DNA of 64,000 nt, taken from the NCBI GenBank assembly GCA_964016885.1, contig OZ024741.1, positions 127,100,001 to 127,164,000 of the forward strand, in the 5' to 3' direction. Positions 5,315 through 64,000 of this stretch are shown here, piece by piece. Under the pieces are notes generated by a model. It was not told where the DNA came from and made no database searches. It saw only the letters and a program-made list of their open reading frames with translations. The stretch's first letter is position 1; each line of letters begins with the position of its first letter. Both the position numbers and the translations under genes were made by a program. Source of the stretch: Eledone cirrhosa. Lineage: Eukaryota.

Positions 5315-5457
5315 CAATTCCATATATGGTCAAAGAGATAATCACCAGGATTGGTCATCCCACAAGGTAGTAGTAATTCAGCGAAGGCAAGTTGGTGGGG
5401 GAGGTAGCCAAACCTGCCAGTAGGAGAAAAGGGGAGAGGGGGCGGAGTAGACCCATA

Positions 5458-6456: not shown

Positions 6457-6640
6457 GGTGGAGTGGCAGTATCGGTAGAGGGTCGGACGCCATGCTTTCC
6501 AGCATAGTTACGTCCCTTTACGATCTGAGTTCAAATCCCGCCGAGGTTGACTTTGCTTTCATCCTTACGAGGTCGATAAAATAAAGTACCAGTAATGCAC
6601 TGGGTAATTGCTGGCCTTGTGCCTAAAGTAGAAACAATTA
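6457..6640 (+). mobile_element. tRNA-derived SINE
   Basis: A-box-like TGGCAGTATCGG and B-box GAGTTCAAATCC; multiple copies in the window. Confidence 0.85.
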
Positions 6641-20065: not shown

Positions 20066-20317
<252 letters not shown>

Positions 20318-21195: not shown

Positions 21196-21198
<3 letters not shown>

Positions 21199-21424
21199 AA
21201 CCAGTAAGACCCCGACAGCTGAGCTCAAGCCGTTTCGACGGCTAATTCTGGACTAAAAAAAAAAAAAAAAAAATTTTTTTTTTTTTTAGTCCAGAATTAC
21301 CCGTCTAAACGGCTTGAGCTCAGCTGTCGGGGTCTTACTGGTTCCTATTACCCACTCTACTACCTCAAGTATTGAGTACTTTGGTGCGTTATGGTCCACC
21401 TGGTTCCTTACCACATTTCCTTCG

Positions 21425-21427
<3 letters not shown>
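21196..21427. mobile_element. Family B mini-foldback with A19T14 centre
   Basis: Arm 21196-21254 is inverted relative to 21288-21348; tail on the right. Confidence 0.85.
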
Positions 21428-21669: not shown

Positions 21670-21733
21670 TATTTTATTATATATATTTCAAGGGTACCAA
21701 GACAACATTGGTACGCTTTCATCAGATAAAATA
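21670..21733 (-). ncRNA. Type I hammerhead ribozyme, family A (mirror at 25178-25242 has GAAA>GATA)
   Basis: tattttat-CTGATGA-aagcgtaccaa..ttggtaccctt-GAAA-tatata-TA-ataaaata. Confidence 0.85.
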
Positions 21734-22579: not shown

Positions 22580-24110
22580 TATATTAGATAGAATCATACC
22601 GCAACTTACCTAAAACTATGGAACGGTACTAATGAGGTTATAGATTGGTTCAATAACATAAAATTTAAACATTCATTCAATTGGATATTGCAAACTACTA
22701 CTCCTCTATTACTCCTAATTTACTTAATAAAGCTCTTATCTATGCATCTAAACATACAGATTTATCTAGCGAAGAAATGCATATCATTTTAACTGCACGG
22801 AAAACTTTTATTGAATTCAACAATCATCTCTGGACTAGAGCCGATAGAAAAAATAATTTTGATATCACCATAGGATCATCAGACTCGGCGCAAATAACGG
22901 ATCTTGTGGGAATATTTATTAATAGAAAAATACCAGAGATGACCAGTGGTTTATATCGTGATATATGCTGCTTTTAATTGAAAATCATAGTCATTGTGAA
23001 ATTAATAGGAAAAGAAAAGCCATAATACAATTCTTCAATAGCTACAACCTTAAGTTAGAAATAGAGAATAACTATACAATTGTTAACTTTTTAGACGTAA
23101 CATTAAACCTTAACACAGGGCTCTACTATCCATTCCATAAAATTAATGAGAATCTAAACTATGTAAGTTTTAACTCTAATCATCCTAGATCTATCAAGAA
23201 CACTATTATTATTCAATAACGTATTTCACGCATCTCCGCTAATAAAAACATTTTTGACGATAAGGCAGAATATTATAATGAAGCTTTAAATAGAGCAGGC
23301 TATATAAATAAGATTAAATACATCGACAACAATAATAAGGCAAATAACCCTAATATTAATTATAATTATAATAAAAAATGTTACTTAAACTCTAAAACTA
23401 GCAGAAGAACTAGAACTAGATATATTATTTGGTATTCACCCCCATTCTCATTAAGCGTAAAAACACCTTTAGCAAAGCTATTCTTTAAAGCACTAGATAA
23501 ATGTTTTCCTAAAGCCCACAGATACCACTCAATCTTTAACAGACATACTATAAAACTATCCTACTCTACCACTATGAACATAGCACAAAATATAAATAGA
23601 ATTAATAATAGAAATTTAAACCCTAAGCAAAATAACCAAAATAGCAGTAATATCTCTAGCAATATCCAACATAATAGTACCGTTCTGAATAACAACTCCG
23701 CAAAATGTAACTGTAGAATTAAATCAAACTGTCCTTTACAAAATAAGTGTTTAGATAAGGATGTCGTCTATAAATGTACAGTCAAAACCAGTGATAATAT
23801 ATTTAACTATGTAGGTGCAACTTCTACAGAATTTAAAAGTCGCTGGAATAATCACGAGTGTTCTTTCCGAAGATTTGATAAAAAAATTTTAACTCCTCTT
23901 TCAAACCTGATATGGAACTTAAAATGCAAGAATATGGACTATTCATTAACTTGGGAAATAGTTTCAAAAGCACCCGCGTACCGAAACACAGCTTTATCTA
24001 GATTCTGTAAATTTTTTCATACTTAAATGTAAGAACTTTATTAATCTAAGAACGAATTTATTTAATTCTTGTAGACATCGTCTGCATTCAACATTCAGAA
24101 CTATATATAA
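22580..24110 (+). pseudogene. Naiad-like PLE RT + GIY-YIG, disrupted
   Basis: DIANYYSSI, FDITIGSSDSAQ, LYRD, NFLDVTL, SNHP, CNCRIKSNCPLQNKC..VVYKC..YVGAT. Confidence 0.9.
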
Positions 24111-25311
24111 ATTATAATTATACTTATAATATTTCTACTTATTTCCATAACAATCTTATCCACTTGGTTTTAATATATTGATATCTCTAAATCATAAAAT
24201 CTACAACATTTACTATAATTCCACTTCTTAAAGTTTCATAAAATATATACATATATAATTCTAATTTCTTTAAAAATTTTAATTTTAATTTTAATTTTAA
24301 TTTTAATTTTAATTTTAATTTTAATTTTAATTTTAATTTTAATTTTAATTTTAATTTTAATTTTAATTTTAATTTTAATTTTAATTGTAATTTTAATCTT
24401 AATAATTTTTAATTCTTTATTTTTATTTATTTTATTTTTATTTATTTTAAAAATTACTTATTTTTTATAAATTATTTTTTAAAACATTTTCTCAAATTTT
24501 TAATATTTTTTCAATATTTTTTATTAGATTTATAACCACTAACTGATTCTGGTTAAATATATCTTTCAACATTTATATTTATTTTGACTAAATAGTCTCA
24601 TACTAACGAATAAATAAATTAAACTGGAGTTTTTCCGTATCTTCCCATTTTAAAATATATAAATATAAATATTCTTATTAACTCAGTTAATTTAATTTAT
24701 GTTAACTTAATATTTACTTACATTAAATACAAAACCAATATCCCTCATAACTCATTGAAACAATTATCTATAGCATGATATACACATCTATTTATTTATT
24801 TATTTATCTACTTATAACAGAAAATATTATATTATAAATGAATTTTAAACAACTAATAATCGTAAATACACGTACTATTAAGATATATACTTAGAATATA
24901 TTTCCCCCAAATTAACGTTATATGAGTTTTATTCATCCTCTCTTGTTTATTTCTTCTTCCTCTCTCTCGTACTATTTTATCTTTCTCCCGTATATCTTCT
25001 CTCTCTCTTTCTCCAGTGTCGTTTAAATAAGCGGTTGGTTTTCAATTATTTACATATTCATTTACATATTCACACATAAGTTTGAATAATCCCATATATA
25101 TTTCCACTATCCAGTGAATTTCCAACCGATAAGGTATGATTTTTATGTGTATGTCTCTATTTATAAAACAAACTTTGTATTTTATCTGATGAAAGCGTAC
25201 CAATGTTGTCTTGGTACCCTTGATATTATATATAATAAAATAAATATAGTTTTATAAATATAGTTTCCATTTATTTAATATCATTGTATATATGTATATA
25301 TGTATATACAT

Positions 25312-25500: not shown

Positions 25501-25587
<87 letters not shown>

Positions 25588-26118
25588 CATCTGTATGTGT
25601 ATATATATATATATATTGGTAAACGGAAAGGAAAATGCTGACAAATTGTTCACAGTGAAAAATAGTTTAATTAGGAATAAGTGAGAATTAGTAATAGTAT
25701 TGGTTAGTATTCAGTTTTGGTTTTAAGTTTTACCGGTTGCGCATTTCTAATGCTTTTCAAAAATAATTTTGAGATAGAGCGTCCGTGATGTTTGCCCTGA
25801 TCTGATAGTTTTGGGAATTCTACCTGTTTTTATGTTAAAAAAGTGGCTCCAGCGGTATTAAAATAAGTTTTGCGCCAATTCGTGTTGCAAAAATTCTTGT
25901 GGTCAAAACAATTTTGATTGGTCGGTAGAGGTCATGTGAATGTAAAAAATTGATTTTGCGCCAAATGTAGGTTTGTGTCGGCTGACTGAGAAATAAGTCT
26001 TTCACAACAAATATGTGTGTGTGTGTAGTAGTAGTAAATAGGTTCGTTGTTGTGATAATGGTCAGCAGGGATGTGTATGCGAACCGCAGCCTGTTGACAG
26101 TTCAAATGCCTATTAAGA

Positions 26119-26181
<63 letters not shown>

Positions 26182-26366
26182 CAGAGTAATTCGTGGTAGA
26201 GGGATGGTGAGTAGGAATGTGCCTGTAAGTGTGTGGGGGATATTTTAACATGTTAAAAGATATTTTTTCAGCTCTTGTCTTATACGGAGAAGTGTGTGTG
26301 TGTGTGTGTATGTGTGTGTGCGTGTGTCTCTTTGTATGTTAATGTACGCGTGTGTGTATGTGTGTG

Positions 26367-26447
<81 letters not shown>

Positions 26448-26624
26448 AAGAGAGAATGTGTGTGTGTGTGTGTGTGGATGGATCAGTATTTATTTCTGTT
26501 GAAATGGTGTACATTATTCGATATTTTCAGTAAAATCGATTCTCTCAATAGAACATCAAAAACCTTAATAATAAAAGGTGTGAAATGATATATAGTATTG
26601 GCATAATACCAAGGTGTGTGTGAG

Positions 26625-26880
26625 TGTCCAGATTGTACGTACTGCAAGGGGATCCATTAGGCATTGCCGTATTGGAATACCTGTGCACAAATATGTATCT
26701 GGAGTGTGTCCAGAAATTGTATAGCTGTGCACAAATTGTACACATGTATCTGGAGTGTGTCCAGAAATTGTATACCTGTGCACAAATATGTATCTGGAGT
26801 GTGTCCAGATTGTACGCACTGCAAGGGGAATTCATTAGGCTTTGCCGTATTTGAATACCTGTGCACAAATATGTATGTGC
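26625..26880. repeat. ~44-bp minisatellite in the Neptune 3' region (mirror at 44140-44410)
   Basis: Repeated tgtgcacaaatatgtatctggagtgtgtccaga units. Confidence 0.85.
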
Positions 26881-27102
26881 CCATCAGTGTGCAATGCATG
26901 TGTACGTTTATGTATGTGTGTGTGTTGGCACGTTTATATCTATAGACATCAAAAGGTATGCAAATTTGTGTATATTTGTGTTGCACCATAGAACATGTGT
27001 GTTTGCGTATGTCATTGTGTTTATATGTGGGTAGAGATGTATGCTGATGTAGCTATGTATGTTGACGTGTGTATGTTGACGTGTGTATGTTGTGGGTTCG
27101 TC

Positions 27103-29430
27103 TTAGGGAGAAGTGTTTAGACGGGGTCCGTATTTGTTAATAAAGTAAGATTCCTTGCTGATGCACTGGGTGTGGGTGGCATTATCTTTAAATTTGTAGA
27201 AGGGAAAGATTCTGAAGTTGGGATGATTTTGGGCGGCACATGTATCAATGTGTTCACTCAGTGGTATTTTCCTGTATTCCCGTATTTTAATTTGGGATCT
27301 ATGGACAGTCATGCGTTGGCGGAGGCTGTTTTTGGTCTGGCCTATGTATTGTTCCCGACAACCTGAGCAAGTTAATACATATATTAGATTTTCTGATGCG
27401 CATGTGAAATTGTGTTTTACTATAAAACGTTGTCATCCTTTGAAATAGAATTCCGAACCCTCTATTAGGTTGATGCAAATGCCATAGTTGGGTCTATCGC
27501 ATTTTTTTACTGTGGGTTTCGTTGTTGTGGTTGGCAGTACTTTGGCATGTGTTAGGATGTTTTTCATTGACTTAGATTGTCTTTTGCTCTTTATGATATC
27601 GTGTGTTCGTAGGATTTGGTTCATTCTATGGTCCTTTTTCAACACAGGGATGTTCTGGAGGATGGTGTCAAAGGCTTCATTGTTGAGGGGGTTGTGTGTG
27701 GAGATGTATGGAAGAGCTTTTCGTTTCGGTTGATTTACTTTAGGGTGTCTAAGGTCCTGGGCACTGAGTTTTAGGGCACGTTGGATTCCATTGTCAATTA
27801 GTGATGCAAGGTAGTCCCTGCCTATGAGTGTGTCCTTTAGTTCTTGTAGCCGTAAGTAGCAGGTGTTTTTATTGGAGACTATAGTACAGATTCTCTTGGC
27901 TAAGTTGTAGGGAATATTAATTTTAACGTGTCTAGGGTGGCAAGAGTTGAAAGGAAGATATTGCTTGGAGTCTGTGGGCTTGTAGTATATGTCTGTTTCT
28001 ATTTTTTTGTTATGGATCTTAATGAGGATGTCGAGGAAGAGGAGTTGTTGATGGCTGTATTCCATCGTGAAGTTAATATTCGTGTTGAGCCCATTTATAA
28101 GGGTGTGAAATTCTTTAAGTTTCTCGATGTGTTCGTGCCAAAGGATGAAGCAGTCATCTAGATATCGCTTCCAGTTCCTTTCTATGTGTGAGTGGAGAGT
28201 GTTTCCAAATTTGTTTAGGACTTTAGTGTAGAGGGTGATTTCCAGGTATCCCATGACTAGGTTGGCATAAGTGGGGGATGTTTTCGTTCCCATAGCGGTC
28301 CCAGATTTCTTCCTGTAGGGTTTGTTATTGAAAACGAAGTAATTGTTCTCCAAGATAAATTTGAGTCCCTCTATCACGAATTCTTTTTTGATGCGTTGTG
28401 GGAGTTCATTGTGGTAATTATCCAGCCAGAATTGGATAGCTTCTATTCCTAGGTTGTGGGGGATGTTGGAGTATAGGTTGACTACATCGAACGTCACTAG
28501 TAGGGTTTGTTCAGAAAGTGGCATATTAGGGAGGTGATTGAGCATATCTAGGTCGTCCCTTATATAGCTTTTGATGTGTTTGAGAAAAGGCTTGAGAAGG
28601 GTATCAATGAAGTTGCTGAGGCGGTGGGTTTCGCAAGCGGAGCCTGCTATTATAGGTCTTAATTTGAGATCATTGGGTGAGGGGACATTGATGACTATGT
28701 CTGTGGCTTCCTTGCATGCCTTACTTATTAATTCGCTTTTATGTACTTTAGGGATACCGTAGAAAAGGTTGGATTTACTTGTGAAGTCTGTGATGAAGCT
28801 GAATTCCTTGTTAGTGAGTCCTTCTTTGTATTGGTTGATCAGAGTTTTTAGGTTTCTCATAATTTTCTGTTGATTGTAGTGTTCAGCCTTTTCGTAGTAT
28901 GTTTCGTTTTCCAAAGTGGAGAGCGCTAAGTTGATATAGAATTCTGTCTCCATTAGGACTACTGTACTCCCTTTATCAGCCTCTTTAATTGTAATGGTTC
29001 TGTCGGTTTTTAATCTATTTAATTCTTCCCATTCTTTCTTGTTGAGGTTTGGCTTGTGTTTTTGTCTGTGCAAGTGTTGGTAAGGGAAGTTTGTGATGTG
29101 TTCACAGAATTCGTCCAGGATTTTATTTCTACCTTTCGATGGGGTGTAATTGCTTCTATTTCTGGCTAATGATTCATCCTCATTGTACTGGTCGAATAGT
29201 TGTTCACTGAGTCGTAACTTTCTACAGAAGTCTGTGATGTCTTCCTTCATTTCATAGTAGTTAGGACGTAGTGGGGTCGGTGTAAATTTAAGACCTTTGG
29301 AGAGTAAGTTGATAAGGTTGGGCGTTGGTTCTGCACTAATAAGATTGATAATTTTAATTACTATCGGTTTCTCCTCCCTGTCTTGTGTTATTTTGTTTGC
29401 CTGTATCTGTGTGCTGTGTCTAAAAAATGG
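27103..29430 (-). pseudogene. PLE reverse transcriptase-GIY-YIG polyprotein with one in-frame TGA at 27433-27435
   Basis: LSKGLKFTPTP, ADKG, RPII, FDVVNLYSNIP, GTAMG, RYLDD, SCHP, LIYVLTC..C..QYIGQT. Confidence 0.92.
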
Positions 29431-30064
29431 TTGGGGTAGAGGGGTTGTCTGCTGATGTTAAGTGGTCTCCTGTGTTTGTTATATTCCTTGTTGTTGTAAA
29501 ATGTGGTTCGGGTTGGTGGTTGTAGATTGAACGGGGTGTGTTTCTATGTGCCATGTTGGATTGTGGTGTTGTAGGTGGCCTACGTTGTTGGTTGTATTGT
29601 GTGGTGTGGGTTTGTTGTGTATTGTGGAAGCGAGAGTTGAGAAAATGGAAATTACCTTGCTGTCCCCTTGAAGCGGGGAAGTTGTTACATCTATCATGGC
29701 GGTGGTATCTTTTCCCTATGTTTGACGATGAGGCATCCGCGTAGTAGTTGACTGATTTGGTATGGTGTCTCCTTGAAGGGGGAAAGTTGTAAATGTCATT
29801 CTGGGGGAGATGAGTTCTAGGGTTTTTGTTCCTTCTTATGGTAGCGAGATATTTATATGAGTGTGTGTGTGTGTATGTATATATAAATATATACAAATAT
29901 ATGCATGTATGTATATGTACATATATGTGTGTGTATATATATATATATATATTGGAAGATAGATAGATAACTAGAGAAATACATACATACATACATACAT
30001 ACATACATACATACATACATACATACATACATACATACATACATACATACATACATACATACAT

Positions 30065-30572: not shown

Positions 30573-31929
30573 AATCGGAGTAATTGATGTTAAATCTTAA
30601 TTCTAAACAACACCGAAAACGTCCACATCAACAGTGACATAGACCGCCTTTACTTGAAACGTAAGCAGGGAGGCAGAGGCCTAACATCAGTTCAGACAGC
30701 ATTTAAATGTAGCATCATATCCCTCCGACAACATTTACGTACCTCGAAGCATAGGAGCCCGCCTCTCGAGCATGTCTATCTGCATGAAACAGATAAGAGC
30801 ATGAGAGTTGGGAAGGAACTCCTTGAAAGATACTCCCTGCATGATAATCAAAAACTCGCACCCAACAGTACCGCAGTGAATCTATAGATGAAAAACTGCA
30901 TGCTTATCAGCAAAAAATCATGCATGTATATGTTGCCAGGAAGCTCCAGAGTGAGAGTAATATAGATAAGCAAATTAGTCTATATTGGACCAACAACCGC
31001 TATATTGGCTCCCACTTTGAAGGATACGCTTTTTCAATCCAAGAACAGGAAATCAACACAAATACCTGATACATAAAAGAGATAGGGATGCAGGCAAAAC
31101 ACCTAGATGTGACAAGTTTAGACTCTGCAGAATTAACGTCGAAGATGTCACCCAAGTCATAAGCAGCTGTCCAAAGATGTCATCGAGGTACTATCTACCT
31201 ATGAGGCATGATGTAGTGGCCATAACACTGTACAATGCAATCCGTAGAAAAGATAGCCCCGATAATAAACACATTAAAAGCTACAACAATGTGGAAGACA
31301 TACATATACATAATATGAAAGAGAACTGGTGGAATGTTCCAGTAAAAACCCCAATAAAATGCAGGCATAACAGACCAGATATTATGATATGGGACAGGGA
31401 GAAGAAAACATGCACAGTAGTAGAAATTAGCTGCCCAGCAGATGCCAATATAATATCAAAGATTAGTGAAAAGGAAAATATCTTTTGCAGAACTGATGAG
31501 AAATCTGCAGATACTCCACCCTGATTATACCTTCAGATTTATGCCTGTGAGTATTTGGGACACGGGGAGATGTTAGTAACTGCCTCAATACAAATCTTGA
31601 GAAGCTGGGCTTCATAGGAACAGAAAGAACACAACTAGTTAGGAAATTACAAGTACAATCCATTAATAGAACAGTAAAAATATGTAAAAAATTCCAAAAA
31701 TTCTGCATATACACTTGTACAGATATAAAGCATATGTACATGCACACATATAATTCAAAATATATACATCCACACATGCAATAACATCCATACCTGCACA
31801 CGCATGCATGCATGCAGACATGCATACATATCTACCTAGTTGATGTTGTGTAAATTCCAATGAGAGAGTCTTGTATGTATGTTAGAAACCGACTCTCTCT
31901 CTATTGGCAAAAATTTGTGAAATTATAAA
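30573..31929 (+). mobile_element. 5'-truncated R4/Dong-type LINE (CATA-associated family)
   Basis: RLYLKRKQGGRGL, EGYAFSIQEQEI, MRHDVVA, HNRPDIMIWD..VVEISCPAD. Confidence 0.9.
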
Positions 31930-31933
31930 TATA

Positions 31934-32052
31934 TGTATGTTCTTCTGGTTTTATAATTTCACAAATGTTTGCCAATAGAGGAAGAGTCGGTTTCTGACAT
32001 ACATACAAGACTCTCTCATTGGAATTTACACATCAACTAGGTAGATATGTAT
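31934..32052 (-). mobile_element. Short 3'-end copy of the same R4 family, tail-to-tail with the previous copy
   Basis: Reverse complement of 31824-31929 plus CCAGAAGAAC(ATAC) end. Confidence 0.85.
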
Positions 32053-35549: not shown

Positions 35550-36166
35550 ATATATAGTTCAAGGAAATAACAAAACAAGAGATAAAAAAGACTTATTAGT
35601 TTCATGCTTTATATGGAAAAGGGGAAAGAAAGTTCGACATATGATAATATAAAATCATCTATAAAATAATATATAAAATAAATGTTTACATATATCTTAA
35701 TTAGAATATTTTTTTAAAGTAAATTCTAGAATAAACGGCAAATATGACTTAACTATTTAACTATATATTAATACTAATAGTCTATTTCTAATTCTAATAT
35801 ACTTTTTTCTTATATTCTTTCCTTAAATTTTCTTCCACCCTAATATTAATATTAACCTCTATCTCTTCTTCCCTTAAAAAATAATCATAATAACTATTTA
35901 AATTTACCTAGCATCTAAATATAACGATCTTTTTAAACTTTACGTTATCCTCATTAACATATCCATCCTAAGATTTGAATTTCTTTTTCACTATCCAAAC
36001 AGAACTTAAAACGAAAAGTTCTTCTTTTGGGATATCTCACTATCTGTAAAAGAATTTTGGTATTTTATCTGATGAGAGCGTGCCAAAACTTTGGTGAAAT
36101 ATGTATAATATATATGATAAAATAATTTGGTTTTATAAAGATAGTTTCCATTTATTAATATTATTG

Positions 36167-36492: not shown

Positions 36493-36532
36493 CATTTATA
36501 GAGAGATTATATATATATTTAATATATATTTA

Positions 36533-36725
36533 ATATAGAAATGGCTTCTACAGGACTAAAAACTGTTTCATTCCGAAGAAATCATCAGGGCTTTCCTGGT
36601 GATTTCTCCCGAATGAAACAGTTCTAGTCCTGTAGAAGCCATTTCTATATTAAATATTTATACTCTGTTATGTAATGAGTACCTTACTTACTGTCGTTAC
36701 CCCCGATTGAATCCGGGATAAACAT
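36533..36725. mobile_element. Family C mini-foldback with hammerhead motifs in both arms
   Basis: Arms 36533-36589 and 36595-36652; right-only tail. Confidence 0.85.
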
Positions 36726-36748
36726 ATGTATATATATATACGTACATG

Positions 36749-40255: not shown

Positions 40256-40438
40256 GGTGAATTGGCAGTATCGGTAGAGGGTCGGACACCATGCTTTCCA
40301 GCATAGTTACGTCCCTTTACGGTCTAAGTTGAAATCCCGTCGAGGTTAACTTTGCCTTTCATCATTACGGGGTCGATAAAATAAAGTACCAGTAATGTAC
40401 TGGGTAATTACTGGCCTTGTGCTTAAAGTAGAAACAAT

Positions 40439-40574: not shown

Positions 40575-40580
<6 letters not shown>

Positions 40581-40973
40581 ATGTTGAAAAGGTAACACAC
40601 CAGAGAGAGATATATAGTGCGTTATCAATAATACAGGGAAAAAACCACCAGTGTATGGAATCTATAACCTATGAAAGGCAGACTATAGACACGAAAATTA
40701 AAAATATAAATTAAAGCGTAAATAAATACCTCTATAACTATATAACACACGTACAAATCCAAAGATATGTTTCACCAAAAATTTGTTGAAAGAAATGGTC
40801 TAGTCTCGGTTCATCAGCGTGTGTAAGGCTGTATTATTGATAACGCACTATATCTCTCTCTCTCTGGTGTGTTACCTTTTCAACATATTGTATTTTAAAG
40901 AGCTCAGGATCTCTTCTCCTTTGAGCACATTATTTACAGGGAATAGCGAGGGCCTATGCCTCCGTTAATTTAT

Positions 40974-40980
<7 letters not shown>
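40575..40980. mobile_element. PLE foldback with ~60-bp arms and right-only tail
   Basis: 40575-40635 inverted versus 40829-40893; (TA)n flanks. Confidence 0.8.
40745..40824 (-). ncRNA. Type I hammerhead ribozyme with full stems
   Basis: acacacg-CTGATGA-acc...ggt-GAAACatatc-tttg-gatttGTA-cgtgtgt. Confidence 0.85.
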
Positions 40981-41012: not shown

Positions 41013-41321
41013 GTTCAAGAGTAACCAATCTTAAAGAGAGAGATTGAGATAGTAGAGGAGATATGAGAGGAAAGATTGGTGAGTTAGTTAGAAGCCAAAG
41101 CGTAAAGCATGTGCTCAATGTGCAATATGCATTAGAAAGCAGCTAGGTGGCTGGGTTCATGCAGAGGTTAGGTGCGCAGAGCTGGAAATATTCATTAGTT
41201 AAGCAAAACAAGACCACAAATTTCACAAGGAAGACATTATTAAAAGATTGTCAACATATTTAGTTTGATGTAAGGAATGTAGAGAATAATAATAATAATA
41301 ATATTAATAATAATAATGCCC

Positions 41322-41440
41322 GTTTACAATTGTTTCGCTACTCCGTATAATATTTCTGGATCAGATGACTATGTATCATAATTGATCTGGTTCAGTTGAA
41401 AATAATTAACATTTAAAAAAACAGAGTGGCTCATCGGAAC
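41322..41440 (-). ncRNA. Hammerhead motif with long stem II insert (U4C)
   Basis: gtt-CCGATGA-gccactctg...cggagtagc-GAAACaattGTA-aac. Confidence 0.6.
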
Positions 41441-41808
41441 TCAAAGGAATATAAATTAAAATAATGTTACATAATATAATGTTCCATATATTAGTTTTTA
41501 CTATGGTGCCTTTGTTTCATCAGCTGTCAGCCATAATCAAGCAGTACTCATCTGTCGAGGCTGCATTGTGTGAGATCTGCCTATGGGTAACAAGATGGCT
41601 GCCAAAGGGCATATTTACCTTACTAATTAGAGGGTGGTTTCAGGGGAAGTAACTTCTCGAAAGATTAGAGATTGTGTGTATTTTATAGTTATGTGCTAGT
41701 ATTTAAATTATTTAATTGAGAAACAATGTAGGGGAGGTAACTTATAATTATCGAGTTGTTCATAGCAATTTAACTTATTAGTTACAATTAGAGATGGGGC
41801 TACTTGAC

Positions 41809-42186
41809 TAAGTTGGGTCAAAAACTCTATTGGCGAAGGAATTAGCCCTTCGATGTTGACAGCTAATGGTTACCTACGTTCTATCGTTAATTGGTAGAGG
41901 TCTTGATAGAGTTATGTAATATGCTTCCGTAACACAGAGATCACAAGATTTCCTTCGTCTATTGAACGGTTGTGCCCTAGCTACGATATCCCATTTTAGT
42001 GAGTGTTGAACTTTGTTTAATTTAAGGTTTTTAATTAGCCTAGCTAGCGATGTCGAACATCTGTTGCTAGGGTATCGGAAGGAAAAAGAGTGCGCATTAT
42101 AGCGTACCTTAAAAGGGTTAGAGGTAGACCCGATATAAGAGCTGGTATTCGAAGCAGTCTCAACTGTGCACCTATAGACTATGTGT
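41809..42186 (-). pseudogene. GIY-YIG endonuclease remnant not in the ORF track
   Basis: Manual translation: IVYRCTVETASNTSSYIGSTSNPFKVRYNAH...LKWDIV...CDLCVTE...CQHRR. Confidence 0.85.
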
Positions 42187-42245
42187 ATACAATCTTTTAA
42201 TAATGTCTTCCTTGTGAAATTTGTGGTCTTGTTTTGCTTAACTAA

Positions 42246-42450
<205 letters not shown>

Positions 42451-42473
42451 TTTACCCGCCTTCGATATATATA

Positions 42474-42625
42474 ATATAGAAATGGCTTCTACAGGACTGG
42501 AACTGTTTCATTCGGGAGAAATCATCAGGCAGCCATTTATATATTAAATATTTATACTCTGATATGTATTGAGTAGCTTACTTACTGTGGTTACCCCCAT
42601 TGAACTCGGAATAAACTTATAAATA
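42474..42625. mobile_element. Family C mini-foldback; intact-core hammerhead on the minus strand at 42484-42534
   Basis: ggctgc-CTGATGA-tttctcccgaat-GAAACAG..CTGTA-gaagcc; tail matches 36650-36725. Confidence 0.8.
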
Positions 42626-42633
42626 AATAAATA

Positions 42634-42679
<46 letters not shown>

Positions 42680-42684
42680 TATAC

Positions 42685-44651
42685 ATTTATCTTGGAGAAC
42701 AATTACTTCGTTTTCTATAACAAACCCTACAGGCAGAAATCTGGGACCGCTATGGGAACGAAAACAGCCCCCACTTATGGGATACCTGGAAATCACCCTC
42801 TACACTAAATTCCTAAACAAATTTGGAAACACTCTCCACTTACACATAGAAAGGAACTGGAAGCGATATCTAGATGACTGCTTCATCCTTTGGCACGAAC
42901 ACATCGAGAAACTTAAAGAATTTCACACCCTTATAAATGGGCTCAACACGAATATTAACTTCACGATGGAATACAGCCATCAACAACTCCCCTTCCTCGA
43001 CATCCTCATTAAGATCCATAACAAAAAAATAGAAACAGACATATACTACAAGCCCACAGACTCAAAGCAATATCTTCCTTTCAACTCTTGCCACCCTAGA
43101 CACGTTAAAATTAATATTCCCTACAACTTAGCCAAGAGAATCTGTACTATAGTCTCCAATAAAAACACCTGCTACTTACGGCTACAAGAACTAAAGGACA
43201 CACTCATAGGCAGGTACTACCCTGCATCACTAATTGACAATGGAATCCAACGTGCCCTAAAACTCAGTGCCCAGGACCTTAGACACCCTAAAGTAAATCA
43301 ACCGAAACTAAAAGCTCTTCCATACATCTCCACACACAACCCCTCAACAATGAGGCCTTTGACACCATCCTCCAGAACATCCCTGTGTTGAAAAAGGACC
43401 ATAGAATGAACCAAATCCTACGAACACACGATATCATAAAGAGCAAAAGACAATCTAAGTCAATGAAAAACATCCTAACACATGCCAAAGTACTGCCAAC
43501 CACAACAACGAAACCCAGAGTAAAAAAATGCGATAGACCCAACTGTGGCATTTGCATCAACCCAATAGAGGGTTCGGAATTCTATTTCAAAGAAGGACAA
43601 CGTTTTATAGTAAAACACAATTTCACATGCGCATCGGAAAATCTAATATATGTATTAACTTGCTCAGGTTGTCGGGAACAATACATAGGCCAGACCAAAA
43701 ACAGCCTCCGCCAACGCATGACTGTCCATAGATCCCAAATTAAAATACGGGAATACAGGAAAATACCACTGAGTGAACACATTGATACCTGTGCCGCCCA
43801 AAATCATCCCAACTTCAGAATCTTTCCGCTCTACAAATTTAAAGATAATGCCACCCACACCCAGCGCATCAGCAAGGAATCTTACTTTATTAACAAATAC
43901 GGACCCCGTCTAAACACTTCTCCCTAAGACGAACCCACAACATACACACGTCAACATACATACCTACATCAGCACACATCTCTACCCACATATAAACACA
44001 ATGACATACGTAAACACACATGTTCTATGGTGCAACACAAATATACACAAATTTGCATACCTTTTCATGTCTATAGATATAAACGTGCCGACACACACAC
44101 ATACATAAATGCACACATGTATTGCACACTGATGGGCACATACATATTTGTGCACAGGTATTCCAATACGGCAAAGCCTAATGAATTCCCCTTGCAGTAC
44201 GTACAATCTCGACACACTCCAGATACATATTTGTACACAGGTATACAATTTCTGGACACACTCCAGATACATGTGTACAATTTGTGCACAAGTATACAAT
44301 TTGTGCACAGGTATACTATTTCTGGACACACTCCAGATACATATTTGTGCACAGGTATTCCAATACGGTAAGGCCTAATGGATCCCCCTTGTAGTACGTA
44401 CAATCTGGACACACACACACACTCACACACACCTTGGTATTATGCCAATACTATATATCATTTCATACCTTTTATTATTAAGGGTTTTGATGTTCTATTG
44501 AGAGAATCGATTTTACTGAAAATATCGAATAATGTACACCATTTTACCAGAAAAAAATACTGGTCCACACACACACACACACACACATTCTCACACACAC
44601 ACATATATACACACATACACACGCGTACATTAACATACAAAGAGACATATA

Positions 44652-44682
<31 letters not shown>

Positions 44683-44791
44683 TTCTCCGTATAAGACAAG
44701 AGCTGAAAAATATATTTTAACATGTTAAAATATCCCCCACACACTACAGACACATTCCTACTCACCATCCCTCTACCATTAATTACTCTGC

Positions 44792-44825
<34 letters not shown>

Positions 44826-45357
44826 TCTTAATAGGCATTTGAACTGTCAACAGGCTGCGGTTCGCACACACATCCCTGCTGACCATTATCACAACAATGA
44901 ACCTATTTACTACTACTACACACACACACATATTTGTTGTGAAAGACTTATTTCTCAGTCAGCCGACACAAACCTACATTTGGCGCAAAATCAATTTTTT
45001 ACATTCACATGACCTCTACCGACCAATCAAAATTGTTTTGCCCACAAGAATTTTTGCAACACGAATTGGCGCAAAACTTATTTTAATACCGCTGGAGCCA
45101 CTTTTTTAACATAAAAACAGGTAGAATTCCCAAAACTAATCAGATCAGAGCAAACATCACGGACGCTCTATCTCAAAATTATTTTTGAAAATCATTAGAA
45201 ATGCGCAACCGGTAAAACTTAAAACCAAAACTGAATACTAACCAATACTATTACTAATTCTCACTTATTCCTAATTAAACTATTTTTCACTGTGAACAAT
45301 TTGTCACCATTTTCTATTCCGTTTACCAATATATATATATATATACACATACAGATG

Positions 45358-45435
<78 letters not shown>

Positions 45436-45458
45436 AAAAGGGGTTCGGAGGTGCGACA
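42685..45458 (+). mobile_element. Neptune-like PLE copy 2, 5'-truncated (RT-GIY-YIG to 43927)
   Basis: Near-identical inverse of 25458-28360; small deletion near 42778 and frameshift near 43342. Confidence 0.92.
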
Positions 45459-48314
45459 ACTTAGGAGGAATATGACTACAGTCTGGCTGGACTGCAGGAA
45501 AGCTTTCGATTCTGTTCCCCACTCTTGCATGATAGAGGCCCTCCAACTTGCTAAAGTCCAAGGATTTATTATCAGAGCCATAGAGAAGCTGTCTTCTTGG
45601 GCTACTATCCTAAAGGTAATGACAGAGAAGGAGGACTCTATTTTCACTGATAAAATAAAATATCGCAGGGGTATATTTCAGGGAGACAGTCTCTCTGTGA
45701 TATTATTCATCCTGTCCTTAAACCCTTTGTCCTTTCTGCTCAAGAAATGTGAAGGATACATCATTGGCTCACAGGAGGACAGAAATATGAACCTAACCAT
45801 AATTTATTTGTGGATGATCTGAAACTCTATGCCAAGAACATGGATGGGATGAATAAAAATCTTGTCCTGGTTACAACGTTCTCAAAGGATACAGGAATGG
45901 AGTTTGGCCAAGATAAATGCTTATATATGACTGTAAAGCGGGGAAAAACAACAACCCAATCTAGCAACATCGTCATCTGTTTCACCGATATCTGCCTATC
46001 TGTTTCACCGATATCTGATGAGGACTGCTACAGATACCTGGGGATAGATGAGAACATATCCTATAATGGTATCTGTAATAAGGAACACGTAACCAGGGAA
46101 TACTACACCCGATTAAGAAAGATATGGTCATCGGAACTATCTGCGCAAAACAAAACAGTGACTCACAATATGTTTGCTGTGCCTGCCCTAACACCAACGT
46201 TTGGAATACTCAATTGGACGATAGACGAAATCGAAGCAGTTGATGTTAGAACTCGAAAAATACTAAACAATACCGGAAACTTCCACATCAGCAGGGACAT
46301 AGACCGCCTTTACTTGTGTCTATGTTAGAAACCGACTCTCTCCCTATTGGTAAAAATTTGTGAAATTATAAAACCAGAAGAACATACATACTTACATACG
46401 CAGAACTGATGAGAAATCTGCAGATACTCCACCCTGATTACACCTTCAGATTTATGCCTGTGATTATTGGGGCACTGGGGTATGTTAGTAACTGCCTCAA
46501 TACAAACCTTGAGAAGCTAGGCTTCACAGGAACAGAAAGAACACAACTAGTTAGGAAATTACAAGTACAATCCATTAATGGAACAGTAAAAATATGTAAA
46601 ATATTCCAAACATTTTGCATCTAATAACTGCATATACACATATACAGATACAAAGCATATACACATGCACACATACAACTCAAAACATACACATCCACGC
46701 ATACAATAAAATCTATATCTACACATGCATGCACACATATCTACCTAGTTGATGTTGTGTAAATTCCAATGAGAGAGTCTTGTGTCTATGTTAGAAACCG
46801 ACTCTCTCTCTATTGGGAAAAAATTGGTGAAATTATAAAACCAGAAGAACATACATACATACATACATACATATATACATACATACGTACGTACACAATA
46901 AAACGGTGGCTCACAGTGTGTTTGGAATACTTGATTGGACGATAGACGAAATCCGAGCAATTGATGTTAGGATTCGAAAAATACTAAACAACACCGGTAA
47001 CTTCCACATCAACAGTGACATAGACCACCTCTACTTGAAAAGGAAGCATGGTGGCAGTGGCCTAACATCAATCCATACAGCATTTCAATGTCGCATCATA
47101 TCCCTCCGACAACATTTACGAACCTCGAAGCGTAAGAACCCGTCTCTCGAACAAGTCTATCTGCATGAGACAGATAAGATCAGGAGAATTGGGAAGGAAC
47201 TCCTCGATAGATATTCCCTGTGTGATAATCAAAGACTCACACCCATGGAGCTGCTTAGCAGTACCGCAGTGAATCCATGGATGAAAAACTGCATGCTTAT
47301 CAGCAAAAAATCATGCGTGGATATGTTGCCAGGAAGCTCCAAAGTGAGAGTAATATAGATAAGGAAAGTAGTCTATCTTGGACCAAAAATCGCTATATTG
47401 GCTCCCACTTTGAAGGATACGCTTTTTCAATCCAAGAACAGGAAATCAACAGGAAATACCTGATTCACAAAAGAGATAGGGATGCAGGCAAAACACCTAG
47501 ATGTGACAACAAGTACAGACTCTGCAGAATTAACATCGAAGATGTCATCCAGAATTAACATCGAAGATGTCATAAGCAGCTGTCCAAAGATGTCATAGCG
47601 GTACTATCTACCTATGAGGCATGATTTAGTGGCTAAAACACTGTACAATGCAATCCTTAGAAAAGATAGCCCCGACAATAAACACATTAAAAGCTACAGC
47701 AATGTGGAAGACATATACATAATATGAAAGAGTACTGGTGAAATGTTCTAGTCAAAACCCCAATAAAATGCAGACATAACAGACCAGATATGGGACAGGG
47801 AATAGAAAGCATTCACAGTAATCAAACATTAGCGAAAAGGAGAATATTTATGCAGAACTGATGAGAAATCTGCAGATACTCCACCCTGATTACACCTTCA
47901 GATTTATGCCTGTGATTATTGGGGCACTGGGGTGTGTTAGTAACTGCCTCAGTACAAATCTTGAGAAGCTGGGCTTCACAGAAACAGAAAGAACACAAGT
48001 AGTTTGGAAATTACAAGTACAATCCATTAATGGAACAGTAAAAATATGTAAAACATTCCAAACATTCTGCATCTAATAACTGCATATACACTTGTACAGA
48101 TACAAAGCATATGTACATGCACACATACAACTCAAAACATCCACATCCACACATACAATAACACCCATACCTGCACACACATGCATGCATGCTGTCATGC
48201 ATACATATCTACCTAGTTGATGTTGTGTAAATTCCAATGAGAGAGTCTTGTAACTATGTCAGAAACCGACTCTCTCTCTATTGGCAAAAATTTGTGAAAT
48301 TATAAAACCAGAAC
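45447..48314 (+). mobile_element. Tandem array of three 5'-truncated R4/Dong-type copies (45447-46384, 46399-46850, 46895-48314) separated by (CATA)n
   Basis: WLDCRKAFDSVPH, GIFQGDSLS, DDLKLYA, YRYLG; each copy ends GAAATTATAAAACCAGAA(GAA)C(ATAC)n. Confidence 0.9.
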
Positions 48315-48517
48315 ATACATACATATACCATTTATGTTATGTTGTTTGCCAGTGGGTAAAACGGGTTCCGGTTAGTAAACGATTGTGCAATAAATTAATG
48401 CCAATCATCCATAGTAGATGTGGTATCCCATGGCTTGTGCAGGAACAGAGTTAAATCTTCATTAAAAACAACAGAAAGCCGGACTGGAAACTTTCTTTAA
48501 AATTTTAATTCCGCGAA

Positions 48518-50339: not shown

Positions 50340-51067
50340 ATATACATACAGATGCATATCAATGTTAGCAAATATATAGGTTTTGTCTTAATAACAGTGT
50401 GGTTCAATGCATGGGGTTGCAGAACAATAATATAAGAGACGTAAAATAAGAAAATTATAAAATTAACTTACTTACTAAAATATCACTTCCAACTAATTAG
50501 TTTCTGGAATGGAGTAAATATATTTTCCGAAGAATAATATATAGAAGCATTCCGTCGTCAGGAAAGTCTATTCTCATGTAAGTTTCCAGGCAAAGCGAGG
50601 ACACTGGAAACTTATTAAAAAATAATTCAGTGGATAGGAAATAGCGAAGCGTGGACTGAATTCCAAGCCATTGAGAAAATCACTGCCTCTACGTCTGTGG
50701 CAAATTCAAAAAGAATCGAACACGTGACATCGAGGTCAATCAGTGGAAAGTGGTTTGCTAATAAGACAGCGGCCTACCTACAACCGTAGCAGCAGTCATG
50801 GCCAATATTGCTCGACAAATAATTTGGAGATAATAATAAAGAATTCAGTCCACGCTTCGCTATTTCCTATCCACTGAATTATTTTTTAATAAGTTTCTAG
50901 TGTCCTCGCTTTGCCTGGAAACTTACATGAGAATAGACTTTCCTGACGACGGAATGCTTCTATATATTATTCTTCGGAAAATATATTTACTCCATTCCAG
51001 AAACTAATTAGTTGGAAGTGATATTTTAGTAAGTAAGTTAATTTTATAATTTTCTTATTTTACGTCT

Positions 51068-51074: not shown

Positions 51075-53300
<2,226 letters not shown>

Positions 53301-53302
53301 TT

Positions 53303-54348
53303 AAACATTAGATCAAACAATATATCTTTAAATTATAAACAATATAGTTATCTTTCCCTTAATAAAAGTTGGTTTACTATTCACATTTACGAGACATTCA
53401 AATTATACATAAATGTTTAAATTTATATATCTCACCTTTTACATTAATAGATTATACATAATATTATACATCTTCTCTTAAAAAAAAAAATTATTATTTT
53501 CACATTCTTAAGGTATATATAGAAAATGCATATATATCATCGCTCGACATATCTTACGAGTTTTCATAATTATTTATACTTAAATAAGATCTATATTCAC
53601 GCATAATTATTTATGTACTAAATAATTTTTTTTAATAACGATATACGATACATTTTTTTTATAACTGCACTCATCATAATATTCATATATATGCGTAAAT
53701 TATATACAATCGTATATATAAATAAAGCGTATCTTTCACATATTATAATGCTTTAATAAATTAATTGTTCTCAATTTAATACATTAATTATTATGAATAC
53801 TTCCATATTCTTAAAATATATTATAAAATTAAATAAATAAATATAATTATTTCATTCTTTCTATACCGATGTAAATATGTTTGGGTGCATATATGCATAT
53901 TTCTATAAATAATCCTAAATTAACTTTAAAATAATTTTTTTCAAATTTAATAGCAAACCCTTATTAAAAAAAATATAATTTAGATAAATATTTAAAATCT
54001 ATCTAGCGTCTATACTTAACGGTCCTTTTCAGTTTTAATGTTATCCTCATTAGCATATTTATCCTGAGTTTTGAAAATTTATTCACTATCTTCAATAAAC
54101 TTATAACATGAAGTTCACATGAAGATATGTCACTATCTTTACACCAATTATTGTATTTTATCTGACGAAAGCGTACTAAAATATTAGTACCCTTGAAATA
54201 CGTATAATAAAATAAATATGGTTTTATAAAGATATTTTCCATTTATTAATATTGTTGATATTAATGATACTCCGGAATAAACCGGTGAGTGCTTCTAATC
54301 TGTTATAAATTAACTTTATTGAATAATCAACAAACCAAACAACTCATT

Positions 54349-54350
<2 letters not shown>
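53303..54350 (+). mobile_element. Family A PLE AT-rich 3' region with tail
   Basis: Terminal ~220 bp homologous to 61650-61875 and to 21530-21760 reversed; left boundary inferred from composition. Confidence 0.65.
54154..54214 (+). ncRNA. Type I hammerhead ribozyme, family A
   Basis: tattttat-CTGACGA-aagcgtactaa-aata-ttagtaccctt-GAAAtacgtaTA-ataaaata. Confidence 0.88.
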
Positions 54351-54429
<79 letters not shown>

Positions 54430-59124: not shown

Positions 59125-59155
<31 letters not shown>

Positions 59156-59156
<1 letters not shown>

Positions 59157-59344
59157 ACGAAGGAATTGTGCTAAGGAACCAGATGGACCATAACGCACCA
59201 AAATACTCAATACTTAGTGCAGTAGAGTGGGTAATAGGAACAAGCATGACCCCGACAGCAGAGCTCAAGCCGTTTCGACGGCTATTTCAGTCCAGAAATA
59301 GACGTCGAAACGGCTTGAGCTTTTCCGTCGGGGTCATACTTGCT

Positions 59345-59348
<4 letters not shown>
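59156..59348. mobile_element. Family B mini-foldback
   Basis: Left arm with tail 59156-59288; right arm 59289-59348 ending CCTAT(AT)n. Confidence 0.85.
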
Positions 59349-59428
<80 letters not shown>

Positions 59429-59692: not shown

Positions 59693-59880
59693 TAATAATT
59701 GTTTCTACTTTAGGCACAAGGCCAGCAATTACACAGTACATTACTGGTACTTTATTTTATCGACCCCGTAAGGATGAAAGGCAAAGTTAACCTCGGCGGG
59801 ATTTGAACTCAGACTGTAAAGGGACGTAACTATGCTAGAAAGCATGGCGTCCGACTCTCTACAGATACTGCCAATTCCCC
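59693..59880 (-). mobile_element. tRNA-derived SINE
   Basis: Reverse complement of the 6457 family. Confidence 0.85.
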
Positions 59881-59889
59881 TTTAATAAT

Positions 59890-61066: not shown

Positions 61067-61374
<308 letters not shown>

Positions 61375-61379: not shown

Positions 61380-61870
61380 ATGATATTAATAAATGGAAAC
61401 TATATTTATAAAACCATATTTATTCTATTATATATATTTCAAGGGTACCAAAACTTTGGTGCGCACTCATCAGATAAAATACAAAATTTGTTTTATAAAT
61501 AGTGACATACCCAGGAATCAGACCTTAACAGTTCAGGTTCCGTTTGCATAGTGAGAGAATAGAGGTAAAAAGAAAAAAGGGGAAGTAAGGAAAAAGAACA
61601 AATATTTCAAATTATGTTGATGAATATGCAAATGAAGTTGCTGATTCCTGGGTATGTCACTATTTATAAAACAAATTTTGCATTTTATCTGATGAGAGCG
61701 TACATAAGTTTTGGAACCCTTGAAATATATATATTAGAATAAATATGGTTTTATAAATATAGTTTCCATTTATTAATATCATTGATATTATACTCCAGAA
61801 AATCTGTCGAGTGCTTTGAATCTGTTATAAATATATTTGTTGAATTACCAACAAATTAAATATCCCTTTG

Positions 61871-63380: not shown

Positions 63381-63790
63381 TATATATATATATACGAGTG
63401 TGTGTGTGTGTGGTGTTGAACTTCCGTTGGTTACGTCAATGACTGTTCCCGGTCAGGGAATCGGACATGTTCTCACAGCACGTTCCTTCTGTCGTTTCAA
63501 CTGGCAAAAATTATTGAACCTGTAAACCAAGGGAGCCAGCCTTGTCACACACTGTCACGCTGAATTTCCCAGAGAACTTTGTTAATGTTTGAGGGATGCT
63601 CAGCTACTTGTACGTGCACGTTAATTTCACGAGCAAGCACTTCCATTGATTGAATCAACTGGAACACTCATCATCGGAAACGACGGAGGTCCAATCTGGT
63701 GTATTAAGACACCTCTGTATTTAACTGTAATTTATTTTATTAAAGATTTTCCATACTCCCTTAATCGTCTTTAATCAATTAATGAGGACG

Positions 63791-64000
63791 GTGGATTGGC
63801 AGTATCGGTAGAGCTTCGAACAACATGCTTTGTGGCATATAGTTACGTCCATTTACGTTCTGAGTTCAAACCATACCGAGATTTGCTTTGTCTTTCATCC
63901 TTACGGGGTCGATACAATAAAGTACCAGTCAAGAACTGGTGTCGATATAATCGACTTTCCCCTCCCCATAAATTGTTGGCCTTGTACCTAAATTAGAAAT
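63791..64000 (+). mobile_element. tRNA-derived SINE (older subfamily)
   Basis: TGGCAGTATCGG, GAGTTCAAA, AATAAAGTACCAGT. Confidence 0.8.

What the first reader, a model, noticed from the sequence alone, without database searches (positions are those of the whole stretch)
54154..54214. Family A covariation and invariantly palindromic stem/loop III
Seen: gtacCaa/ttGgtac (21670) versus gtacTaa/ttAgtac (54154). Stem III is a palindrome in nearly all families: ATATATAT, ATACGTAT, ACTAATTAGT, ACAATTGT, ACGCGCGT, ACGGCCGT, ACCGGT. Known: minimal PLE HHRs can cleave as dimers through palindromic stem III. Inference: RNA dimerisation could also deliver two templates to one target, which would explain the foldbacks.
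Basis: partly seen in the sequence, partly recalled or inferred. Interest (0 to 1): 0.7.

Follow-up and report, generated by a model that had tools for sequence, protein, structure and literature searches.

The report
Paired hammerhead ribozymes in Penelope-like retroelements
This is a hammerhead ribozyme motif at the end of a broken Penelope-like jumping gene; its self-complementary third stem likely lets two motifs fold as a pair, as already published, but it likely does not cause the mirror-image insertions, which also form in families without the palindrome and have one long and one short arm in all 11 cases scored.

Summary
54154-54214(+) is a type I hammerhead at the end of a Hydra-clade Penelope-like element (family A, six copies here). 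The C-G to T-A change is real but lies in stem II and in one copy (28 of 500 shuffles match the count). Palindromic helix III is enriched (4 of 7 families, p about 8e-4) but not invariant, and is published for these elements. The two-template inference fares badly: families with non-palindromic helix III fold back as often (3 of 4 loci versus 8 of 14); 11 of 11 scorable foldbacks pair a long-tailed with a short arm, which independent priming on two equivalent RNAs does not predict; copies were made from uncleaved RNA; the predicted free family A dimer is weak (Kd about 1 mM). Best reading: dimeric ribozyme, with foldbacks from priming both DNA ends at two fixed start sites. The scan has noted palindromes and start-site hairpins elsewhere in this genome. 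No RNA was seen and nothing was assayed.

The parts
54154..54214 (+). Type I hammerhead, family A: stem I 54154-54161 with 54207-54214, core CTGACGA 54162-54168, stem II 54169-54194, GAA 54195-54197, helix III ATACGTAT 54198-54205, predicted cut after A54206
   Evidence: fold z = -3.45 with stems I and II in the MFE and helix III not formed; no Rfam hammerhead match
54177..54186 (+). Stem II pair T54177-A54186, C-G in 4 of the other 5 copies (one unpaired in the alignment)
54201..54202 (+). Centre of helix III, C-G here, T-A in most copies, T-G in a read subfamily and in the 36061 copy; can pair only between two motifs
53970..54351 (+). Recognisable part of the family A copy, with the long 3' tail, ending in (TA)20 at 54352-54391
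54269..54290 (+). Bulged hairpin ACTC-stem-loop-stem-GAGT in the tail, a few bases beyond the site where short copies end
21670..21733 (-). Family A hammerhead in the long-tailed arm of the 21.5-25.3 kb foldback
22601..24008 (+). Broken Hydra-type RT and GIY-YIG ORF of family A (frameshifts, one stop), CNCRIKSNC linker; lies in the short-ended arm
25178..25242 (+). Family A hammerhead, decayed GAAA box, short-ended arm of the same foldback
36061..36123 (+). Decayed single family A copy, short end, helix III ATATGTAT
61421..61481 (-). Family A hammerhead, short arm of the 61.37-61.87 kb foldback
61681..61741 (+). Family A hammerhead, long arm of the same foldback; tail hairpin at 61792-61812
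36530..36728 (.). Family D foldback (control case): non-palindromic helix III, short plus long arm
42467..42640 (.). Second family D foldback, long arm joined at stem I to the short arm
40577..40980 (.). Family E foldback (control case): hammerhead 40745-40824(-) with non-palindromic helix III, long plus short arm
52890..53305 (-). 5'-truncated end of a different, GC-richer Hydra-type ORF, head to head with the upstream side of the 54154 copy with no (TA)n between

Best explanation
The motif is a type I hammerhead at the 3' end of a Hydra-clade Penelope-like retrotransposon copy, whose palindromic helix III likely forms only when two motifs pair, likely within one tandem transcript or with protein help, while the foldbacks likely arise separately, when both ends of a cut (TA)n target prime reverse transcription at two fixed start sites in the RNA tail. 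Shown in sequence: core, stems, link to a Hydra-type ORF, (TA)n flanks, head-to-head arms, one long and one short end in every scorable foldback, a conserved bulged hairpin 7-9 bases beyond the short end, and copies that run through the cleavage site. Predicted by energy model: monomer helix III is not formed and the double hammerhead is favoured. Inferred: dimer cleavage; two priming events on uncleaved RNA by a protein dimer; most likely one RNA molecule read twice (leading enzyme from the near site, trailing enzyme from the far site), then joining of the two cDNA ends, often through the ribozyme's own stems.
For: Hydra link: the ORF upstream of the 25178 copy has CxCX5C, and its five homologues have CxCX5C (5 of 5), ADKT/S (4 of 5) and RWK (3 of 5), the diagnostics given in PMC8557442. 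Dimer design: forming the 2-bp monomer helix III costs 2.9 kcal/mol in family A, and the double hammerhead is 4.5-5.2 kcal/mol below two MFE monomers and within 0.7-1.7 of the cofold MFE. The helix centre shows T-A, C-G and T-G; C at the first central position is at most 3.5%. Among the 40 rows listed (13 not shown), helix III has one variant row (A to G) while five loop II positions have 12. Foldbacks: 11 of 11 long plus short (A x2, B x2, C x2, C', D x2, E, G2; bound 0.0005 under independent site choice, 0.008 by family). The short-ended arm holds the unique spacer in A x2, D42 and E, so the long arm cannot be a snap-back copy of the first cDNA. Arms come from one subfamily in A, B and C. 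Published: two adjacent RT start sites that bound the tail, both strands cut and extended, predicted protein dimer, ribozyme mutants not affecting insertion (PMC11167929).
Against: No RNA evidence and no cleavage assay. The helix III centre shows only three states (at least two events), unphased in reads, and the T-G form is largely one subfamily whose RAD-seq depth is inflated. Energies ignore tertiary contacts and Mg2+. Published minimal PLE hammerheads cleave poorly even as dimers. One RNA versus two cannot be told from 11 loci: same-subfamily arms also follow if one source was active at a time, and in one D and one C foldback the arms are less alike (91%, 88%) than one arm is to another locus (96%, 92%) over 52-57 nt. 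The PAc data are from another clade. The second hairpin expected beyond the long end is not in these inserts and was not tested here. Any hairpin can form an extended duplex, so D and E could still dimerise (cofold gains 10.0 and 4.7 kcal/mol).
Confidence: 0.68

Rival explanations
1. One reading: two transcripts pair through helix III (and swapped stems I), and the RNA dimer brings two templates to one cut, one per DNA end.
For: Two priming events are needed. Copies derive from uncleaved RNA, so an uncleaved dimer could exist. Families B, C, C' and H have palindromes strong enough to pair in trans (predicted Kd about 2e-6 to 2e-5 M for B dimers; -13 to -14 kcal/mol for the C' and H 8-mers). 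Family C keeps GAGCTC in its loop in 5 of 6 copies although its monomer stem is already 5-6 bp.
Against: D and E fold back without the palindrome (3 of 4 versus 8 of 14 loci, Fisher p = 1, small numbers). A symmetric dimer does not by itself give 11 of 11 long/short arms. Family A dimer Kd about 0.4-1.4 mM; isolated AUAUAUAU duplex -2.8 kcal/mol. Naiads lack canonical hammerheads yet have inverted copies and tails. Only 1 of 25 published Hydra-clade hammerheads has a perfect Watson-Crick palindrome (counted from File S2).
Confidence: 0.12
2. Foldbacks come from self-priming (possibly on an antisense template) or from a hairpin intermediate that the endonuclease resolves asymmetrically, giving the one-sided tail; the hammerhead is still a dimer-type processing signal.
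For: Proposed in PMC3846280 (self-priming) and PMC8557442 (tail from EN resolution). Several junctions lie in self-complementary stems (C, C', D, E). Near-identical arms in B (99-100%).
Against: Simple snap-back of a sense cDNA fails where the short-ended arm holds the spacer (A x2, D42, E). Short ends sit at a fixed distance from a conserved hairpin in A, B, C and C'. In vitro the tail ends match RT start sites.
Confidence: 0.14
3. The palindromes and the paired changes are by-products of mutation (template-switch correction of hairpins, AT-rich low complexity, CpG decay) with no selection for pairing.
For: Stem II covariation is one event of two transitions. ATATATAT is low-complexity in a (TA)n-rich genome. 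ATACGTAT to ATATGTAT to ATATATAT is a CpG-decay series. Most copies are decayed.
Against: CpG decay should give CA as often as TG, yet T-G is about 16-40% and any C at that position at most 3.5%. Different palindromes occur in unrelated families, GC-rich ones included, and near-palindromes with 1-2 nt centres hold across 22 of 25 published Hydra families.
Confidence: 0.05
4. The foldbacks are assembly or long-read chimera artefacts.
For: B arms are 99-100% identical; one has a 1-nt spacer.
Against: Arms differ by 4-12% in A, C and D, end at family-specific sites, and opposite-strand joints appear in independent short-read runs.
Confidence: 0.01

Closest known systems
Minimal and palindromic-helix-III hammerheads of metazoan Penelope-like elements (Cervera and de la Pena 2014, PMC4209133; parts 1-2 of 4 read)
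   Same: Type I topology, enlarged helix II, small palindromic helix III, proposed dimer action, dispersed truncated copies, pairs on opposite strands 100-700 bp apart, covariation within families, U3-A8 core variant (family C).
   Different: Family A has an 8-bp helix I, A-U rather than G-C at the base of helix II with a C·C mismatch, and a 4-nt loop III; that paper does not link the dimer to foldbacks in the parts read.
Hydra clade of C-terminal EN+ Penelope-like elements (Craig et al. 2021, PMC8557442; passages and supplement parts read)
   Same: CxCX5C linker, C-terminal GIY-YIG, (TA)n target, hammerhead at the 3' end, inverted 5'-truncated copy, one-sided tail.
   Different: Family A's hammerhead differs from all 26 Hydra-clade rows of File S2, including Hydra-1_Obim; tails here are about 70-110 nt against the 30-40 bp described; published helices III mostly have a 1-2 nt centre (1 of 25 perfect palindromes).
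PAc Poseidon element in vitro (Frangieh et al. 2024, PMC11167929; parts 1-2 of 4 read)
   Same: Two internal RT start sites bounding the tail, both strands cut and extended, uncleaved RNA as template, protein-assisted ribozyme, predicted protein dimer.
   Different: Other clade; single substrates in vitro, foldbacks not addressed; here both ends show 2-5 nt TA microhomology to the target.
Dimeric type I hammerheads of axolotl retrozymes (Cervera and de la Pena 2020, PMC7229834; passages read)
   Same: Weak helix III with palindromic tetraloop; dimeric constructs cleave much better than monomers.
   Different: Tandem non-coding repeats in which the partner motif lies in cis; family A is linked to a coding element.
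L1 twin priming and retroviral kissing-loop dimerisation (recalled, no call)
   Same: Two target ends prime on one RNA (L1); a loop palindrome pairs two genomes (retroviral DIS), which family C's GAGCUC loop resembles.
   Different: L1 gives an inversion without duplication; here both arms repeat the same sequence. A DIS is not part of a ribozyme.

Membership tests
Type I hammerhead ribozyme | CUGANGA and GAAA boxes, U16.1-H17 site, three helices open at helix I | tested here: met
Type I hammerhead ribozyme | Match to a curated Rfam hammerhead model | tested here: not met
   No hammerhead family at E up to 10 on 54100-54270; none among the best 150 window matches listed. Models miss minimal PLE forms (inference).
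Type I hammerhead ribozyme | Self-cleavage at H17 | not testable with these tools
   no assay; no RNA run listed
Dimer-type PLE hammerhead | 1-2 bp helix III capped by a palindromic loop, unstable as monomer | tested here: met
Dimer-type PLE hammerhead | G10.1-C11.1 pair with an unpaired nucleotide after A9 | tested here: not met
   Family A starts helix II with A-U or G·U pairs
Dimer-type PLE hammerhead | Cleavage needs a second motif | not testable with these tools
   energy model only
Hydra clade PLE | CxCX5C linker before a C-terminal GIY-YIG domain | tested here: met
   CNCRIKSNC in 23220-24026, followed by a GIY-YIG-like segment read by eye; Pfam gave no family for this piece
Hydra clade PLE | RWK and DKT motifs | tested here: inconclusive
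   That part of the ORF is missing in the window; present in homologues 3 of 5 and 4 of 5
Hydra clade PLE | (TA)n target, hammerhead at the 3' end, inverted copy and one-sided tail | tested here: met
Hydra clade PLE | RT phylogeny within the clade | not tested
   no tree built
Naiad clade PLE | N-terminal endonuclease, no canonical hammerhead | tested here: not met
   EN is C-terminal and the hammerhead canonical in order
Non-LTR retrozyme | Head-to-tail tandem non-coding units each with a hammerhead | tested here: not met
   Family A copies are single or head-to-head and linked to an ORF

The most novel reading that the evidence does not exclude
A Penelope-type insertion complex can load two RNA molecules, one per DNA end, and the uncleaved hammerhead dimer is the coupling: helix III would act as a retrovirus-like dimerisation signal rather than only a catalytic switch. 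Family C (stable monomer stem plus a retained GAGCUC loop) and the direct head-to-head junction at 53305 between the 54154 copy and a different Hydra ORF (two templates, unmatched helices) are the places to look.
Probability: 0.13. Interest if true: 0.7.

Novelty: new member of a known kind. Interest (0 to 1): 0.3.

Why it matters
The function of PLE hammerheads and the origin of the inverted, one-tailed insertions are stated as open in PMC8557442. This window adds an apparently undescribed Hydra-clade family, sequence support that the centre of helix III is kept pairable, and a natural control that separates the two questions: foldbacks form with or without the palindrome and are asymmetric in all 11 cases scored.

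Tried and rejected
No genome is held for the window, so genome-wide phased counts were not possible. Rfam gave only microsatellite-driven miRNA matches among the 150 rows listed and no hammerhead at 54100-54270. The repeat finder was swamped by microsatellites; a self-BLAST replaced it. Sequencing runs: no RNA holder listed, which is no evidence on expression. Metagenome scan with a pattern that leaves helix III free (119 loci from 5 of 64 parts): no family A copy; 14 of 119 passed the filter, 7 of them one unrelated hammerhead family with ACTA-NN-TAGT (centres AA, TT, GT; none a perfect palindrome), the other 7 look like chance. Naiad and Nematis assignments were dropped for Hydra. My first reading of family D's long 'stem I' at 42528 was dropped: it is the foldback junction. 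53305-53970 could not be assigned to any family (all scores within shuffles). An automatic measure of short ends by local alignment ran into the microsatellites in 5 of 8 pairs and was redone with anchors. Foldbacks left out of the 11: H and K (a SINE-like repeat at one end), 4250-4683 (no hammerhead recognised, single locus), 5209-6460 (right arm interrupted), the 25.5-45.4 kb pair (may be two insertions). One search stopped before families C and E; their helices were folded. Literature searches listed no paper whose title or abstract start proposes hammerhead dimers as carriers of two templates; subscription papers are not covered. Supplementary figures of PMC4209133 and the supplement of the bioRxiv preprint were not seen and may show related motifs.

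Full report
The window is animal DNA, rich in microsatellites and retroelement fragments. No genome is held for it. I did not determine the species.

Observation. 54154-54214(+) is a complete type I hammerhead: an 8-bp stem I, CTGACGA, a 26-nt stem II, GAA, ATACGTAT and the U-A cleavage site. It folds better than all 200 shuffles (z -3.45); stems I and II are in the MFE and helix III is not. Rfam does not recognise it. Six family A copies lie in the window. The reported gtacCaa/ttGgtac to gtacTaa/ttAgtac change is real, lies in stem II and is confined to this copy. On the six-copy alignment 2 of 22 pairs change on both sides and 28 of 500 shuffles reach that number (the 36061 copy is poorly aligned in stem II). 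Reads and contigs laid on the locus show C in 77-85% and G in 76-92% at the two positions. So the covariation is one event and proves little alone.

These bases cannot pair in a monomer hairpin. In reads, C at the first position is at most 3.5%, while G at the second is 16% of contig depth on one reference and up to 43% on the other, so a T-G form is common; it gives tandem U·G pairs in a dimer, and the 36061 copy carries it. Among the 40 rows listed (13 more not shown) helix III has this single variant, while five loop II positions have 12 rows. Caveats: three states need only two events, the tables are unphased, depth over helix III is inflated by related subfamilies, and the RAD-seq runs favour one subfamily.

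How general is the palindrome? All seven listed strings exist behind GAA, but three are not in intact hammerheads here. A descriptor that leaves the loop free gave 13 hits (0.9 per shuffle), 9 perfect palindromes (0.04 per shuffle), 2 clear exceptions and 2 probable chance hits. Family D, missed by the descriptor, has a stable 4-bp helix III with a variable 8-9 nt loop. By family, A, B, F and G are perfect, C is near-perfect, D and E are not: 4 of 7, p about 8e-4, families perhaps not independent. The feature is published: 'small and palindromic Helix III' and dimer action in PLE hammerheads (PMC4209133, parts 1-2 of 4), and better cleavage of dimeric axolotl constructs (PMC7229834, passages). 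In File S2 of PMC8557442 I count 25 Hydra-clade families: 16 with 4 bp and a 1-nt centre, 6 with a 2-nt centre (one perfect Watson-Crick), 3 with a 3-nt loop. A metagenome scan found one unrelated family (7 of 119 loci) with ACTA-NN-TAGT and imperfect centres.

What carries it. The 25178 copy lies downstream of a broken RT and endonuclease ORF at 22601-24008, 39% identical over 260 residues to an unnamed 729-aa protein. It has the CxCX5C linker, and the homologues have RWK and DKT, the Hydra-clade marks of PMC8557442 (passages). An earlier scan note gave me the Hydra lead. Family A's hammerhead matches none of the published rows, so it is probably a new family. Three more Hydra-type ORF ends lie at 5457-5972(+), 42185-41850(-) and 53290-52890(-).

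Energetics. Forming the monomer helix III costs family A 2.9 kcal/mol. The double hammerhead, with both stems I swapped, is 4.5-5.2 kcal/mol below two MFE monomers, which is a Kd of about 0.4-1.4 mM in trans; family B is about 2-20 micromolar. The isolated AUAUAUAU duplex is -2.8 kcal/mol. For family A the dimer is therefore plausible in cis or with protein, and unlikely as a free pair. These are nearest-neighbour estimates without tertiary contacts.

The foldbacks. All are head to head, with the hammerheads pointing outward and microsatellite, mostly (TA)n, outside. In 11 of 11 scorable cases one arm ends about 70-110 nt further 3' than the other (A x2, B x2, C x2, C', D x2, E, G2); five structures were left out, as listed under Tried and rejected. 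Independent choice of start site on two equivalent RNAs would give this at most with p = 0.0005 (0.008 by family). The short end falls 7-9 nt before a bulged hairpin in 7 of 8 arm pairs measured; D is not resolved. I looked for this hairpin because earlier scan notes describe it. A one-sided tail is published (PMC3846280, passages; PMC8557442), and in vitro it lies between two RT start sites (PMC11167929, parts 1-2 of 4). In A x2, D42 and E the short-ended arm holds the unique spacer, so the long arm cannot be a snap-back copy of the first cDNA; two priming events are needed. All six family A copies continue upstream through the cleavage site, and C and C' foldbacks stop inside stem II, so the template was uncleaved or re-ligated, as PAc data suggest.

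Its own refutation was an unchanged foldback frequency without the palindrome. D and E supply a small natural version: 3 of 4 loci fold back, against 8 of 14 for perfect palindromes (Fisher p = 1), with the same long/short design. Naiads, reported without canonical hammerheads, also show inverted copies and tails. Arms share a subfamily in A, B and C, which fits one RNA but also one active source.

Mechanism I commit to. The hammerhead likely works as a double hammerhead between two pLTR copies of a tandem transcript or with the element's protein (inferred). Insertions are made from uncleaved RNA (shown by copy structure). A protein dimer likely cuts (TA)n and primes both ends at two hairpin-marked sites, most likely on one RNA, and the two cDNAs are joined at their ends (inferred). 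The palindrome is not needed for this step (supported by small numbers).

Verdict. Also read: part 1 of 5 of bioRxiv 10.64898/2026.07.22.740005 and passages of PMC3681739, neither decisive. Interest 0.3.

Noticed in passing
window 52890-54351: The 54154 copy's upstream side joins directly, with no (TA)n, to the truncated end of a different GC-richer Hydra-type ORF on the other strand (junction about 53305): possible hybrid insertion from two RNAs, or a deletion between neighbours.
   Followed up: partly
window 5209-5456(-), 20177-20316(-), 21197-21425, 51151-51455(-), 59154-59349: Family C: U3-A8 core variant (TTGACAA/TTGATAA), very long stem II, 5-6 bp helix III with a GAGCTC palindrome in the loop, like a kissing loop; its relative C' (61180-61350) has only ACGGCCGT.
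   Followed up: partly
window 19353-19376(-), 21354-21377(+), 50402-50425(-), 54269-54290(+), 61792-61812(+): Bulged hairpin (RYTC, 4-bp stem, loop, 2-nt bulge, GARY) with different stem sequences in families A, B and C, 7-9 nt beyond the short end.
   Followed up: partly
window 21236-21310, 59262-59320, 61195-61250, 42495-42560, 40790-40860: Foldback junctions fall inside the ribozyme's own stems or loops, suggesting RT stalls there or that the stems supply the microhomology.
   Followed up: partly
window 25506-29457(-) and 42627-45439(+): Two 97-98% identical copies of a DKG-type Penelope-like element, head to head 14.5 kb apart, both ending at the same site; no hammerhead found by my descriptor.
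   Followed up: no
window 41050-42252: Family G2 foldback with a Hydra-type ORF end and a degenerate CCGATGA core with very long stem II.
   Followed up: partly
window 4250-4683: 434-nt foldback in (TA)n with no hammerhead recognised; the left arm may carry a 70-nt tail.
   Followed up: no
window 31830-32052, 46313-46860, 48201-48327: Small palindromes and repeats of another retroelement end without a hammerhead, next to LINE-like fragments.
   Followed up: no
window 7877-10846(-): 989-aa open frame with RVT_1 and zf-RVT, an L1/Tx1-type LINE by recall, with a second partial copy at 1-1706.
   Followed up: no
window 6453-6638, 40256-40438, 59698-59884, 63790-63939: A repeated element of about 185 nt, SINE-like, twice sitting at the end of a foldback arm.
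   Followed up: no
L008, L016, L033, L051, L057, L080, L099 (at the pattern match): An unrelated type I hammerhead family in metagenome contigs with covarying stem II and helix III ACTA-NN-TAGT.
   Followed up: partly
reads laid on window 54187-54250: An abundant family A relative with a different stem II (ATGCCATATT/AATATGGTAT) and helix III ATATGTAT, with a G-C to A-T change at one stem II pair.
   Followed up: partly
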